A stretch of DNA of 64,000 nucleotides from IMG/VR virus record IMGVR_UViG_3300004481_002026, positions 2,870 to 66,869 of that record, one strand, 5' to 3'. Positions within the stretch are counted from its first letter, which is position 1; each line of letters opens with the position of its first letter. This stretch comes from a virus. Taxonomy: Duplodnaviria > Caudoviricetes. The notes beneath the pieces are model-generated. The model was given only the letters and a program-made list of their open reading frames with translations. It was not told the DNA's origin and did no database searches. Both the position numbers and the translations under genes were made by a program. Below are positions 2,696 through 6,393 of this stretch, in pieces.

Positions 2696-3136
2696 CTAAT
2701 GGGATTCGGGATGCTCAAGAATCTCTTCGCTTATCTGAAGAGCCAATTCTTGTTGGATGCGCGGCTGCATCGCCAGCATCGCAATCATCTGCTCTGTCGT
2801 TAGTGGGACTTGCGCCTGCAGCCTGGCGTGAACAGCCTGTGGAGCAACCTGTTGGCGTTTAGCCTTCGCTGCTGCTTCGGCAAGAAGCGATTCCCACGGG
2901 CGGTCTTGCCCTTTGTCCGCCCCGAATCCTCGAAATGTCGCCAGTTCCTCATCCGTAAAGAGAAGGCGAGCCGGATGCGTCCCCAACACAAGCGCGAGTC
3001 GCACCGCCCATTCCTTCGTCATCTTGCGTGACCCATTTTCCAGCTTAACGATTTGCGGCTGCGAAGTCTCAGCGAGTTCGGCCAGTTCGACCTGGCTCAT
3101 CCCCATATTTTCCCTGATTTCTTTCAGTTTGTTCAT
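2696..3136 (-). CDS. XRE-family HTH repressor (repressor 1)
   Basis: MNKLKEIRENMGMSQVELAELAETSQPQIVKLENG is a classic XRE HTH; divergent promoter region upstream. Confidence 0.9.
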   Translation of the reverse strand: MNKLKEIRENMGMSQVELAELAETSQPQIVKLENGSRKMTKEWAVRLALVLGTHPARLLFTDEELATFRGFGADKGQDRPWESLLAEAAAKAKRQQVAPQAVHARLQAQVPLTTEQMIAMLAMQPRIQQELALQISEEILEHPESH

Positions 3137-3226: not shown

Positions 3227-3612
3227 TGAGTCACAAGAGCAAAAAGACGAACGAACAGCCAAAACGGCCACCTACCTCCCAAGCGTACCGAGTAAACCAA
3301 GCGTACCAGTAAAAACAAAATGAACGCCCCGAAATGCGGGCCAACTACAGGAGACGACGACATGCAGGAAGAACAAGCAGCGTCCAGAAGAGCGGACTTT
3401 CCTTTGGGAATGCCACCGTGACGATCAACAAGGACGCTGCCCGCTGAAATGCGGGCGGCGGGTTCCTCCAGCCAGTCCGCTCGATTGCGAGCCGATCGGG
3501 GTGGAGACACCAAGCGCCATGACGCTTTTTTTCGCGGCGCGGCGTGACGCGACACATCGTAACGTCAAGCTATTCAACGACCTTTCACCACAACCACATC
3601 GAGGAGACTAAA

Positions 3613-4209
3613 ATGGATTTTTCCGTAGCCACCGTAACACTCAGAAGCTTTTCCCCTTACAGCCAGAGCAAGCAGCATGACGAACCGTCGCTGAAGGGCG
3701 AGGGCAAAGGAGACTACGACAAGCGCACCTGGAAGGCCAAGGCGCATTTCACCAAGGAAGGCACGCTTGGCATTCCGGCGGCATCCATGACGCAGGCCAT
3801 TGCCGAAGCCGCCAAATACTCCAAGAAACAAATCCCCGGCCAGGGCAAGGCCACATGGACCGCCAAATTCAAGAGCGGTATCATGCTCGTCGATAGCTAC
3901 ATTGACACCGGCATAACACTCAAGGACAGCGACTTCGTCGACATCATGTGCGACGCTCAGGGTAAGACCGGATCAGCCGTCAGCAGCCGCGTACCGCGCC
4001 GCTTTCCGCAGGTTCCCGAATGGTCGGCCACATTCCAAGTATGGATACTCGACCCCATTATCACCGAAGAAATCTTCCGCGAGATGGTCGAGCTTGCCGG
4101 TATGTTCATCGGTATCGGCCGCTGGCGGCCCGTCATGAACGGCGGAATGAACGGTCGCTTCATCATCGACAAGCTTCAATGGGAAGATAACCGCAAGTTT
4201 GCGGCGTAA
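3613..4209 (+). CDS. Stand-alone Cas7/RAMP-like RNA-binding protein (198 aa)
   Basis: RAMP-like motifs GIPAASMTQAI, RVPRRFP..PEWSATF and a C-terminal Gly-rich loop AGMFIGIGRWRP..GG.NGRF; GAGGAG SD; no other cas genes nearby. Called by motif recognition, not by search. Confidence 0.75.
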   Translation: MDFSVATVTLRSFSPYSQSKQHDEPSLKGEGKGDYDKRTWKAKAHFTKEGTLGIPAASMTQAIAEAAKYSKKQIPGQGKATWTAKFKSGIMLVDSYIDTGITLKDSDFVDIMCDAQGKTGSAVSSRVPRRFPQVPEWSATFQVWILDPIITEEIFREMVELAGMFIGIGRWRPVMNGGMNGRFIIDKLQWEDNRKFAA

Positions 4210-4213
4210 TCAA

Positions 4214-5009
4214 CGCAGCGCCGCGTTTAGCTCGGCACGTTTACGCCGCTTTGCGCAACGCCTTGCTAGGCAGGCTCTTTCGGGAGCCTGCTCAGGGAAG
4301 GCATTGTCTTCCACTTCGCATCTACACGCCACGCTTTGCGCAGTTACGCAACGTTGCGCCGCTCATCTCAACGCAAGGAACTATCATGACTACCGTTGCC
4401 CAACTTAATCAGCCTAGAAGACCGATTGCGGTGGGCAACCGCCGCCTTCTTTCCGCTTCTCGCCATTGTGCTCCATTACGCACCGTGCCGCAGCTTAGTG
4501 AATCGCAAGTCAACTCAACGTTTCCTAGCTTGGTCGGCTCTTCATTGAGCCGCCTTGTGGTGGGAAACCGCCACTGCGCCCCGCGCCTCTACACAACATG
4601 TCGCTCCACGGCTCGTCCTGTCGTATCGCACCTCATCTCAACGAACACCAAACTCAGCAGCGACCGCATTCGTGCGGTCATTGGTGGGCTTGTCCTGCTA
4701 CTCCGATTCGCTACTTGGCGCACCACCGCTCTCTTCGTCGTTCCGCCTTGCACGTCATCTCAACGAATACCCTGCCAAGCGGAGGTTGCCTTCGGGCACC
4801 TTTCGGTTCGCAGGAACCACCCGGCTCCATATCGCGACATGGCGCGCCGCTGCACATTATTGCGCATCTCACCTCACCTCAACGGCCGCCCTTCGGGGCG
4901 GCATCCCCAAGCATTCCTGCTGGAGTGTTTCGGGATGCCGTCACTGGTATCAACCCACGCCACTCTCTGCTTCGCTCCAAAACTTTGCGCAACGTCACTC
5001 ATCTCAACG
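4214..5009 (+). ncRNA. Array of seven pentamer-periodic (CNY-NN)n tracts separated by hairpins; putative guide-RNA array
   Basis: Tracts at 4214-4268, 4312-4371, 4449-4518, 4572-4641, 4694-4763, 4818-4882, 4958-5007. Of 88 pentamers, 72 start with C and 84 have a pyrimidine at position 3. Six tracts end in CTCAACG. Confidence 0.8.
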
Positions 5010-5036
5010 CGCCTAACCACCACATGAGGAGACCCC

Positions 5037-5564
5037 ATGGCCTTTGAATCCACTCCCGCCAGATTGGCGATCAGAGACAAGCTCGTCGACGCATTCGTGC
5101 ATGTCTCAGTGCAGGGGTTAATCACCCACCAGGAAATTGCAGCCATCATTGGCAAGAAAGTAACGTCACCTGACGCGTTGAAAAATTCCGCATTCAAGGT
5201 TGCGACGGAAGAACACGGCATCGTGTTTGAGAACATCCGAGGTGCTGGCTACCGGCGTATCGCGGCCGGAGAAGTGCATCGCGTCGGCACGCAAGCCCGC
5301 CACCGCATACGCGGCACGGCAAAGCGCGGAACGAAGAAGATACTGGCCGTTCTGTCCGGAAACTCCAACAGCATGACAAATGGTGAAAAGATCAGGGCCC
5401 ACGCCGAGATTGGCACGCTTGGTATGATCCGCATGGCGGCCGGTCGTGGTGCGGCGGGGAGGGCGTACCGTGAGGCCGAACGTGCTCATGATAAAAGCCA
5501 GAAGCCGCCAGCGCAGGAAGACATCGCACGCGCCGTTATGGGCGCTCTGGTGCGGTCAGCATGA
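5037..5564 (+). CDS. Accessory protein of the Cas7-like locus, possibly winged-helix DNA-binding (175 aa)
   Basis: Follows the array; GAGGAGAC SD; ITHQEIAAIIG helix plus VFENIRGAGYRR wing-like motif; basic. Confidence 0.7.
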   Translation: MAFESTPARLAIRDKLVDAFVHVSVQGLITHQEIAAIIGKKVTSPDALKNSAFKVATEEHGIVFENIRGAGYRRIAAGEVHRVGTQARHRIRGTAKRGTKKILAVLSGNSNSMTNGEKIRAHAEIGTLGMIRMAAGRGAAGRAYREAERAHDKSQKPPAQEDIARAVMGALVRSA

Positions 5565-5753: not shown

Positions 5754-6335
5754 TCAGACACGCTCGGAAAGGACGATGACATGAATTGCCTGAACACCCG
5801 TTATCGTCACGTTTCCTTCGAAGGCGTACTGGCTGATTTCAGCCTTGTCTGCGGTAAAGGACTCCAGTTTGCCTATCCAAGCAACTCCGCCCTTTCCGTA
5901 AACGAGCACATCGTTTCCAGGCTTTGCCCACAGGGATGGATCAACCCACGCCGTCTTACCCACCAAGAAGGCGGGCTCCATCACTATGGTATCCACAGAA
6001 ACCGAGTATCGGGCGCTCGGAACCTCATCGAAACGGAACTTACCAGCCTTTCGGTCGGAGACCTTTCCGCGAGGATATGCGCGGGCCAGATCGAGTGCTT
6101 TGGGAATCTTGGTTTTTCCCGTGCTTACCTTGGCCTCTGCGACAAGTTCCTCGACCATATCAGGAGAGATTCGCAGAAAGTCAGCAAGCTTACCAAACCA
6201 TTGAGCGCGAGGGATTGTCCCTGTTTTCCATTGGCTGAAAGATTGTTGCTGCCAGCCGTATTCCTTGGAAAGCGCCTTTTCCGACATCTCGCGGCGTTTC
6301 TGTTCATGGGCCAGCGTCTGGCTAAGTCGCGACAT
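5754..6335 (-). CDS. CI-like repressor 2 (XRE HTH plus S24/LexA-like C-terminal domain)
   Basis: N-terminal HTH (SEKALSKEYGWQQQSFSQWKTG); C-terminal YSVSV..MEPAFLVG....VDP...KPGNDVLV....IGKL is S24-like. Confidence 0.85.
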   Translation of the reverse strand: MSRLSQTLAHEQKRREMSEKALSKEYGWQQQSFSQWKTGTIPRAQWFGKLADFLRISPDMVEELVAEAKVSTGKTKIPKALDLARAYPRGKVSDRKAGKFRFDEVPSARYSVSVDTIVMEPAFLVGKTAWVDPSLWAKPGNDVLVYGKGGVAWIGKLESFTADKAEISQYAFEGNVTITGVQAIHVIVLSERV

Positions 6336-6361
6336 GATCGTCCTTTGAAAGCTAAAAGAAC

Positions 6362-6393
6362 TTGACAATAATGTAAATATAAACTATTGTCAA
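6362..6393. promoter_or_regulatory. Promoter/operator cassette copy 3; reads TTGACA-N17-TATTGT on both strands
   Basis: ttgacaataatgtaaatataaactattgtcaa, between the divergent repressor 2 and the gene at 6447. Confidence 0.85.

What the first reader, a model, noticed from the sequence alone, without database searches (positions are those of the whole stretch)
3613..5564. Stand-alone Cas7/RAMP-like gene plus pentamer-code RNA array plus accessory gene: candidate RNA-guided system
Seen: a solitary gene with RAMP/Cas7-like motifs (IPAASM..AI; RRFP..PEW; GIGRWRP..GG.NGRF) is followed 5 nt after its stop by about 800 nt of non-CRISPR array, then one wHTH-like gene. There is no Cas1/2/3/5/6, nuclease or canonical CRISPR repeat. 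Established: Cas7-group RAMPs polymerise along RNA with a fixed nucleotide step. From memory (unverified here), phage systems called VIPR pair a Cas7-like protein with RNAs of alternating GGY/NN units, whose NN dinucleotides specify a gapped DNA target. Inference: this is such a system, but with a different constant triplet (CNY, mostly CGC/CTC/CAC; it is not GGY on either strand), so possibly a distinct subtype. With no nuclease present, it would likely act by silencing competing phages rather than cutting.
Basis: partly seen in the sequence, partly recalled or inferred. Interest (0 to 1): 0.96.

Follow-up and report, generated by a model that had tools for sequence, protein, structure and literature searches.

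The report
Prophage VIPR system with C-G/T-C guides
A Rhizobium prophage carries a genuine VIPR system, the CRISPR-like RNA-guided DNA silencer first described in 2026. Its guide RNAs use the constant letters C-G/T-C instead of the published G-G-Y, so it is a real but not new kind of system.

Summary

- **Protein.** ORF 3613-4209 encodes a 198-aa minimal Cas7-like RAMP. Its best match by sequence among solved structures is the SUSP1 Vipr protein, and its predicted fold matches Csm3, Cmr4 and type VII Cas7.
- **Array.** The 827-nt gap to the next gene holds seven tracts of 9-15 pentamers, each with three constant bases (C, G/T, C) and two free bases. Six tracts end in CTCAACG, and hairpin linkers separate them. 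An eighth tract lies upstream of the gene, outside the reported coordinates.
- **Accessory gene.** ORF 5037-5564 encodes a winged-helix-like protein with weak profile similarity to SUSP1 Vap1.
- **Conservation.** The order vipr, array, vap recurs in about 60 of 75 homologous loci. Scaffolds are conserved there, while the free dinucleotides and the number of repeats vary strongly.
- **Variation between clades.** Sister clades use CAC, GAC, GTC or GGC as the constant triplet. The middle base tracks one G-loop residue: Arg goes with G, and Gln, Phe, Ser and others go with A.
- **Targets.** I found no natural target for this window's guides.
- **Novelty.** VIPR, its non-canonical repeat units and guides against rival vipr genes were all published in 2026 preprints. 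This scan has already noted VIPR-like loci in at least 234 other genomes. This is a new member of a known kind.

The parts
3527..3592 (+). Candidate upstream vrRNA (U0): about 8-10 pentamers of CGY-NN ending in TTCAACGACC, just before the vipr ribosome-binding site
   Evidence: A tract scan finds it. L012 and L001 have a tract at the same place ending in CAACGCAACGACC, but with different NN. SUSP1 also has one vrRNA upstream.
3613..4209 (+). vipr: 198-aa minimal Cas7-like RAMP with thumb motif RVPRRFP and G-loop GIGRWRP
   Evidence: Best PDB sequence hit is SUSP1 Vipr 36pp (E 0.05 with the single sequence, 4e-4 with a profile). hhalign against the Alf5 Vipr gives prob 92.5%, E 4.9e-7. The AF2 model has pLDDT 79. 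Foldseek E 9e-7 to type VII Cas7, Cmr4 and Csm3. VIA Z 9.7-9.9.
4210..4260 (+). vrRNA tract U1: TCAACG, then 9 pentamers, ending in CAACG
4261..4313 (+). Linker 1 (hairpin)
   Evidence: MFE -29.5 kcal/mol. Conserved in L001.
4314..4373 (+). vrRNA tract U2: 12 pentamers, ending in CATCTCAACG
4374..4445 (+). Linker 2 (hairpin with GGTGGGCAAC)
   Evidence: This linker folds better on the minus strand.
4446..4520 (+). vrRNA tract U3: 15 pentamers, ending in CAACTCAACG
4521..4573 (+). Linker 3 (two hairpins)
4574..4643 (+). vrRNA tract U4: 14 pentamers, ending in CATCTCAACG
4644..4700 (+). Linker 4 (hairpin). Nearly identical in L001.
4701..4765 (+). vrRNA tract U5: 13 pentamers, ending in CATCTCAACG
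4766..4824 (+). Linker 5 (hairpin with TTCG loop)
4825..4884 (+). vrRNA tract U6: 12 pentamers, ending in CACCTCAACG. This unit is absent from L001.
4885..4954 (+). Linker 6 (long hairpin with 5 G-U pairs on the + strand)
   Evidence: -39.0 kcal/mol on the + strand against -32.4 on the - strand.
4955..5009 (+). vrRNA tract U7: 11 pentamers, ending in CATCTCAACG, followed by the vap ribosome-binding site (GAGGAG at 5026-5031)
5037..5564 (+). vap-like accessory gene: 175 aa, an N-terminal winged helix plus C-terminal long helices
   Evidence: AF2 pLDDT 87 with topology H-E-H-H-E-E. Foldseek hits are weak (E >= 0.03) and go to GntR, MarR and ArsR regulators. hhalign against SUSP1-clade Vap1 gives prob 62%, E 7.6e-5, with a shared VGYR motif. 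A homologue follows the array in nearly all CGC and CAC loci.

Best explanation
This is a VIPR (Viral Interference Programmable Repeat) system of a temperate Rhizobium phage.

**Inferred mechanism, by analogy with SUSP1.** The operon is transcribed on the + strand. Vipr protomers polymerise on each pentamer tract, one protomer per pentamer. They hold the constant C-G/T-C bases and present the two free bases. The filament then reads double-stranded DNA by a gapped code in which two bases pair and one is skipped, and it blocks transcription of a rival mobile element. The Vap1-like winged-helix protein assists. The hairpin linkers and the conserved CTCAACG end probably mark the borders of each vrRNA, or the sites where it is processed.

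**What is shown and what is inferred.** Shown here are the homology and fold of the protein, the grammar of the array, the conservation of that grammar across relatives together with hypervariable guide positions, and the strand. Inferred are transcription and processing, formation of the RNA-protein complex, the one-base skip rule in this clade, and silencing of rival phages.
For: **Protein.**
- The best PDB sequence hit is SUSP1 Vipr.
- hhalign to a SUSP1-clade Vipr gives 92.5% probability.
- The predicted fold is Cas7-like.
- Distant relatives at 27-46% identity carry canonical GGY-NN arrays.

**Array.**
- The period-5 signal has z = 9.7.
- Tracts have 9-15 units, within the published range of 9-16.
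- Across family tracts the NN positions are close to uniform in base composition. The constant positions are C 93%, C 93% and G 78% / T 17%, although these three figures are inflated by the way the tracts were detected.

**Conservation.**
- About 60 of 75 homologous loci have such tracts directly after the stop codon, followed by the vap homologue.
- Against L001, linkers and handles are nearly identical, while the tracts differ in NN and in the number of repeats.

**Strand.**
- In L008 the linker hairpins sum to -204.6 kcal/mol on the + strand against -128 on the - strand, with 2-6 G-U pairs each and differing inner stems.
- SUSP1-clade arrays lie on the same strand as vipr.

**Setting.**
- The source is a virus record.
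- The 97%-identical IMG/VR record is a complete provirus.
- No guide matches the phage's own genome, as reported for published VIPRs.
Against: - The constant triplet is not the GGY that defines characterised VIPRs.
- SUSP1's three residues that contact G1 and G2 (H17, R138, D177) align with S19, F131 and R170 here, so RNA recognition cannot simply be assumed.
- Sequence similarity to SUSP1 Vipr covers only the C-terminal third.
- No natural target was found for guides U2-U6 by exact 1-nt-skip patterns in IMG/VR. U4 was also absent from JGI metagenomes and, at up to 3 mismatches, from 401 genomes of the family of the L001 host genome (Rhizobium ruizarguesonis).
- In this window the two strands fold about equally well (-208.7 against -203.7 kcal/mol), and linker 2 folds better on the minus strand.
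- There are no expression data.
Confidence: 0.88

Rival explanations
1. It is a Vipr-like RNA-protein filament with a different job. It might bind RNA or regulate the phage's own genes, for example as part of the lysis-lysogeny circuit in which it is embedded, rather than fight rival elements.
For: The locus lies between two HTH repressor genes, 2696-3136 (-) and 5754-6368 (-). No external target was found. SUSP1 VIPR can also pair with RNA in vitro.
Against: No guide matches the phage's own 66.9-kb genome better than chance under skip 0, 1 or 2. Guide positions turn over fast between close relatives, which is typical of conflict rather than self-regulation. In a relative, L040, one guide spells the conserved vipr motif of other systems.
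Confidence: 0.08
2. The period-5 region is not a guide RNA. It could be a DNA-level element such as iterons or binding sites for the winged-helix protein, or a repetitive coding sequence (ORF 4251-5027, 258 aa).
For: An ORF of 258 aa runs through the array. A DNA-binding protein gene lies next to it.
Against: A period of 5 does not fit codons. Insertions and deletions against L001 are not in threes, and they fall in the tracts. The tracts always lie on the vipr strand next to a Cas7-like RNA-binding protein in about 60 of 75 loci. G-U pairs favour an RNA hairpin on the + strand in L008.
Confidence: 0.03
3. It is a decayed or orphan remnant of a CRISPR-Cas class 1 effector (a lone Cas7).
For: The closest solved folds are Cas7 proteins of types III and VII.
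Against: There are no CRISPR repeats, and PADLOC and Pfam find no Cas family. The protein is the size of a single RRM. The family is large (2275 representatives at E <= 1e-3), is carried by phages and has its own conserved array type.
Confidence: 0.01

Closest known systems
Type II VIPR of Escherichia phage SUSP1 / Felixounavirus and the Pseudomonas fulva prophage (bioRxiv 10.64898/2026.04.26.720920, .720927; PDB 36pp)
   Same: Both have a minimal RAMP of about 200 aa with a thumb and a G-loop (G-x-G-x-W-R-P). Both have pentamer arrays on the same strand with 3 constant and 2 variable bases and 9-16 units, one vrRNA upstream and several downstream. Both have a small DNA-binding accessory gene with weak profile similarity to Vap1. 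Both are phage-borne and neither targets its own genome.
   Different: The constant triplet is C-G/T-C, not GGY. The residues that read G1 and G2 in SUSP1 are replaced (H17 to S, R138 to F, D177 to R). The gene order is vipr, array, vap rather than vipr, vap, array. The 3' end is a short CTCAACG handle with hairpins between tracts, not a pseudoknot tail. Protein similarity is detectable only over the C-terminal third.
Non-canonical VIPR arrays found by entropy periodicity (bioRxiv 10.64898/2026.10.21.760802: 21 clusters, e.g. CAC/NN, GAC/NN, WGT/NN, TGH/NN), and the YNNNG consensus in the discovery paper's methods
   Same: These are fixed trinucleotides other than GGY next to Vipr-like folds. 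I found CAC/NN and GAC/NN in sister clades of this very family. C-NN-C-G fits YNNNG.
   Different: CGC/CTC is not named in the text I could read, and the figures and tables are not held. Neither text mentions hairpin-separated units or the link between a G-loop residue and the middle base.
Class 1 CRISPR backbone subunits (Csm3, Cmr4, type VII Cas7)
   Same: They share the RRM/RAMP fold, thumb and G-loop (Foldseek E 1e-6 to 1e-4, VIA Z about 9.8), and they polymerise on RNA with a fixed step.
   Different: Here there is no CRISPR array and there are no other cas genes. The step is 5 nt rather than 6 nt. The guide is non-contiguous.

Membership tests
VIPR | Vipr protein: a minimal single-RRM RAMP with thumb and G-loop, homologous to described Vipr | tested here: met
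   The best PDB sequence hit is SUSP1 Vipr (E 4e-4 with a profile). hhalign gives 92.5%. The fold is Cas7-like. Homology by sequence covers only the C-terminal third.
VIPR | vrRNA: tandem pentamers of three constant and two hypervariable bases, about 9-16 units, next to vipr on the same strand | tested here: met
   Seven tracts of 9-15 units plus one upstream. The NN positions are close to uniform in composition and differ between close relatives.
VIPR | Constant triplet is GGY (canonical consensus) | tested here: not met
   The triplet is C-G/T-C on the gene strand and G-C/A-G on the other strand. The authors accept a 'related consensus', and non-canonical triplets are published, so this does not exclude membership of the wider family.
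VIPR | Conserved structured 3' tail that caps the tract | tested here: inconclusive
   A conserved CTCAACG(C) handle ends nearly every tract. Hairpins lie only between tracts and are absent from single-tract loci and after the last tract. I saw no pseudoknot.
VIPR | Accessory vap gene that acts on DNA | tested here: met
   A conserved neighbour has winged-helix topology. The link to Vap1 is weak (hhalign 62%, E 7.6e-5).
VIPR | Encoded by a phage or provirus | tested here: met
   The source is a virus record. The 97%-identical IMG/VR record is a provirus rated 100% complete. 67 viral contigs carry relatives.
VIPR | Targets follow the 1-nt skip rule, with skipped bases at codon wobble positions | tested here: inconclusive
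   No target was found for this window's guides. In the relative L040, one guide matches the vipr motif V.ILDPIIT at 17-18 of 20 NN positions with the skips on wobble bases. This is a single post-hoc case.
VIPR | vrRNAs are expressed, are processed and co-purify with Vipr, and the complex represses transcription | not testable with these tools
   This needs small-RNA sequencing, a pull-down and a reporter assay.
CRISPR-Cas class 1 | CRISPR repeat-spacer array and further cas genes (Cas5, Cas6, large subunit, Cas1-Cas2) | tested here: not met
   There are no CRISPR-type repeats in 4150-5100. Pfam and PADLOC find no Cas family for either protein. The neighbours are HTH regulators and replication genes.

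The most novel reading that the evidence does not exclude
One G-loop residue of Vipr (R170 here, aligned with SUSP1 D177) may set the middle base of the vrRNA's constant triplet. Arg goes with G (or U). Gln, Phe, Ser, Ala, Val and Met go with A. If so, natural VIPR lineages have repeatedly rewritten the protein-RNA 'grip'. That would create mutually orthogonal scaffolds that rival phages' or satellites' solo vrRNAs cannot hijack. This would be a simple, engineerable specificity code for orthogonal VIPR tools.
Probability: 0.4. Interest if true: 0.65.

Novelty: new member of a known kind. Interest (0 to 1): 0.4.

Why it matters
VIPR is a months-old class of RNA-guided DNA binder, and only GGY-type systems from enterobacterial and Pseudomonas phages have been characterised.

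This locus shows a widespread alphaproteobacterial prophage clade that keeps the architecture but uses C-G/T-C. It has tidy units separated by hairpins.

The comparison across about 150 related loci suggests which protein position sets the constant RNA base. That can be tested directly by swapping R170Q together with CGC to CAC. It bears on building orthogonal VIPR tools and on understanding arms races over guide hijacking.

As a discovery in itself it is not new. The family, its odd repeat units and guides against rival vipr genes are already in preprints, and this scan has met many such loci.

Tried and rejected
**Dead ends in the databases**
- Rfam at E <= 10 found no hammerhead or any other family in the linkers, only a chance DicF match inside the gene.
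- Pfam and PADLOC found nothing for either protein. PHROGs gave only phrog_4652, of unknown function.

**Target searches under the 1-nt skip rule**
- Own genome, skips 0 to 3: nothing above chance.
- 0.5 Mb of related loci plus 120 kb around the L001 prophage: nothing.
- U4 at up to 3 mismatches in 401 genomes of the family of the L001 host genome (Rhizobium ruizarguesonis): nothing.
- Exact patterns for U4, the U3 core, U5, U2 and U6 in IMG/VR: nothing.
- U4 in metagenomes: nothing.
- U3 at up to 3 mismatches in the genomes behind L001 and L002 and in the L012 provirus: nothing.
- The U3 core gave 6 metagenome hits, 4 of them independent, all encoding LLAVYDQA(K/N)(D/E) in the wobble-aligned frame. 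Two sit in a conserved stretch of what looks like an ATP-dependent DNA ligase gene; that identification is from reading the translated sequence, not from a family search. The flanking NN positions match only at chance level, and the number of hits is about what a 20-base pattern should give. I therefore treat these as chance.
- The U7 hits (18 specified bases, 5 jumbo-phage contigs) were not analysed.
- All-against-all test of 244 guides: skip 1 gave 8 hits, against 2-4 for the other skips and for reversed guides. That is too few to establish the rule.

**Readings I dropped**
- A strict one-to-one reading of SUSP1's D177-G1 contact onto this family. L071 has Arg with GGC, and the residue tracks the middle base, not the first.
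- Assignment to one of the seven published types. The figures and tables are not held.
Full report
**What is there**

On the + strand, ORF 3613-4209 (198 aa) is followed directly by 827 non-coding bases (4210-5036) and then by ORF 5037-5564 (175 aa). Each ORF has a GAGGAG ribosome-binding site.

The intergenic stretch is strongly 5-periodic. Identity at lags 5 and 10 is 0.35 and 0.36, against 0.21-0.24 at lags 4 and 6. This is z = 9.7 against 307 windows of the same size from the same record.

Aligned on the recurring word TCAACG, the pentamers read Y-N-N-C-K, which gives a constant triplet C-G/T-C and two free bases. There are seven tracts of 9-15 pentamers. Six end in C(A/C)(T/C)CTCAACG. Six linkers of 53-72 nt separate them and fold into hairpins.

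An eighth, more degenerate tract lies upstream of the gene at about 3527-3592. Tracts with different free bases occupy the same position in two relatives. The 258-aa ORF that runs through the array is an artefact of its composition.

**The protein**

Pfam and PADLOC are silent. PHROGs gives only phrog_4652, of unknown function.

- **Sequence.** Against all PDB sequences the best hit is 'SUSP1 Vipr protein' (36pp), at E 0.05 with the single sequence and 4e-4 with a 34-member profile. The alignment is co-linear and covers the last strand, a helix and the G-loop (GIGRWRP against GVGDWRP). hhalign against the Vipr of a SUSP1-clade Felixounavirus (Alf5) gives 92.5% probability and E 4.9e-7.
- **Fold.** An AlphaFold model (pLDDT 79, pTM 0.74) matches type VII Cas7, Cmr4, Csm3 and Cas7-11 domains. 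Foldseek gives E 9e-7 to 1e-4 at probability 1.0, and VIA-align gives Z 9.7-9.9 over about 150 residues.
- **Family size.** There are 698 hits at E <= 1e-3 in one library and 2275 cluster representatives at 50% identity in another. The nearest named relatives are from Rhizobium leucaenae (97%) and Ancylobacter (63%).

**Conservation of the system**

All 10 genomic loci and most of the 67 viral loci that encode relatives have tracts of the same kind starting within a few bases of the vipr stop codon. That is about 60 of 75 loci scored. A homologue of the 175-aa protein follows. The number of tracts ranges from 1 to 12.

Single-tract loci have no hairpin, so the minimal unit is a tract plus CTCAACGC.

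Against the Rhizobium ruizarguesonis prophage L001 (Vipr 84% identical), the linkers and the handle are almost identical. The tracts differ in nearly every free base and in the number of repeats, and the window has one extra unit. This is the pattern of conserved scaffold and variable guide expected of programmable RNAs.

**Strand**

- The array lies inside a + strand operon.
- SUSP1-clade arrays are on the vipr strand.
- In the Massilia locus L008, the seven linker hairpins sum to -204.6 kcal/mol on the + strand against -128 on the - strand. Each has 2-6 G-U pairs, and the inner stems differ in sequence but keep pairing.
- In this window the two strands are nearly equal (-208.7 against -203.7), so the call on strand rests mostly on the relatives and the context.

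**Accessory protein**

The model (pLDDT 87) has the helix-strand-helix-helix-strand-strand order of a winged helix, followed by long helices. Foldseek hits are weak (E >= 0.03) but are almost all winged-helix regulators. A profile of 20 homologues aligns with SUSP1-clade Vap1 at 62% probability and E 7.6e-5, sharing a VGYR motif. This is suggestive, not firm.

**Constant triplets differ between clades and track one residue**

Within the window's protein family I found CGC (most loci), CTC (L008), CGA (L016) and CAC (seven loci). More distant relatives have canonical GGY. A second scan of a neighbouring clade added GGC, GAC, GTC, GTT, CGC and CTC arrays.

The residue x in the G-loop G-x-G-[x]-aromatic-R-P co-varies with the middle base. 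Counts are over 85 protein clusters at 85% identity:

| Middle base | Arg | Asp | Other residues |
|---|---|---|---|
| G | 57 | 2 | 0 |
| A | 2 | 0 | 16 (Gln, Phe, Ser, Ala, Val, Met) |
| T | 6 | 0 | 2 |

On a quick tree the Gln/CAC rows fall in at least two separate places. The non-Arg residues paired with GAC are of five different kinds. Several independent switches are therefore likely. The counts are not phylogenetically independent, and I ran no formal test.

In SUSP1, H17 and D177 read G1, R138 and W178 hold G2, and R179 helps form the pyrimidine pocket. In my alignment H17, R138 and D177 correspond to S19, F131 and R170 here. They are kept in the GGY-type relatives L075 and L077. W and R of the G-loop are conserved throughout. 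This fits a change in the first two constant bases with the third kept as a pyrimidine. The N-terminal part of that alignment is less certain.

**Targets**

None of the eight guides matches the phage's own 66.9-kb genome above chance under skips 0 to 3. Published systems behave the same way.

All the target searches for this window's guides are listed under Tried and rejected. They gave nothing except six metagenome matches to a 20-base U3 core, which I judge to be chance.

An all-against-all test of 244 guides from the related loci gave one notable case. [quoted passage not shown] It matches 17-18 of 20 positions in four other loci and 15 of 20 in its own gene, with every skipped base on a wobble position. 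This agrees with published reports of vrRNAs aimed at rivals' vipr genes. It is a single post-hoc observation.

**Context**

The source is a 66,869-nt virus record. A 97%-identical IMG/VR record is a provirus rated complete. The locus lies between two divergently oriented HTH repressor genes, upstream of replication and recombination genes (AAA_24, sliding clamp). This is the early or immunity region.

**Comparison with what is known**

Three 2026 preprints cover the class:
- the discovery paper, which describes the seven types;
- the cryo-EM paper;
- the paper on competition between phage and satellite.

A fourth preprint reports 21 clusters of non-canonical arrays, including CAC/NN and GAC/NN. 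The discovery paper's alternative consensus YNNNG fits C-NN-C-G. I could not see the figures or tables, so I cannot say whether this clade is already typed.

This scan's own notes list VIPR-like loci in at least 234 other genomes, several with other non-GGY triplets.

**Verdict**

The locus is a new member of a known kind. The link between the G-loop residue and the middle base, and the hairpin-delimited unit structure, are the parts I did not find in the texts.

**Limits**

There are no expression or binding data. Sequence homology to SUSP1 Vipr is partial. The tract composition figures are partly circular, because the tracts were detected by the C..CK rule.

Noticed in passing
L040:1930-1989 (guide); targets L067:2921-2956, L056:2918-2953, L051:2912-2947, L009:3412-3447: [quoted passage not shown] It matches 17-18 of 20 NN positions in other systems and 15 of 20 in its own gene, with the skipped bases on wobble positions. 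It is probably a guide against rival VIPR systems.
   Followed up: partly
L085:3994-4022, L086:11873-11901, L088:998-1026 (metagenome contigs): The 10-NN core of window guide U3 (4451-4500) matches exactly the first two bases of codons for LLAVYDQA(K/N)(D/E). In L085 and L086 this sits in a conserved stretch of what looks like an ATP-dependent DNA ligase gene (judged from the translated sequence, not from a family search). The flanking guide positions do not match, so this is probably chance.
   Followed up: partly
L096-L175 and L016, L039, L055, L057, L065-L067, L072: Relatives of this Vipr carry arrays with constant triplets GAC, GTC, GTT, CAC, CGA and CTC as well as GGC and CGC. The G-loop residue is Arg whenever the middle base is G and is mostly not Arg when it is A.
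   Followed up: partly
L008:3591-4480 (Massilia sp. MAG): An eight-unit CTC-NN array in a betaproteobacterium has near-identical GUCGC...GCGAC linker hairpins. These are rich in G-U pairs and have compensatory changes in the inner stem. It is the clearest evidence for + strand RNA structure between tracts.
   Followed up: partly
window 3512-3527: A terminator-like hairpin with a run of seven T lies directly before the upstream tract U0. It may insulate the VIPR operon from upstream transcription, or it may be part of a linker-like module (3437-3530 folds at -48 kcal/mol).
   Followed up: no
OQ594955.1:4897-5346 (Pseudomonas phage vB_Pae_LESphi2): The only match in the GenBank phage collection is a hypothetical protein of this Pseudomonas aeruginosa phage (23% identity, E 5e-4). 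It may be another unannotated Vipr.
   Followed up: no
window 4251-5027: A 258-aa open frame runs through the array only because the C-rich pentamers lack stop codons. It should not be annotated as a gene.
   Followed up: yes
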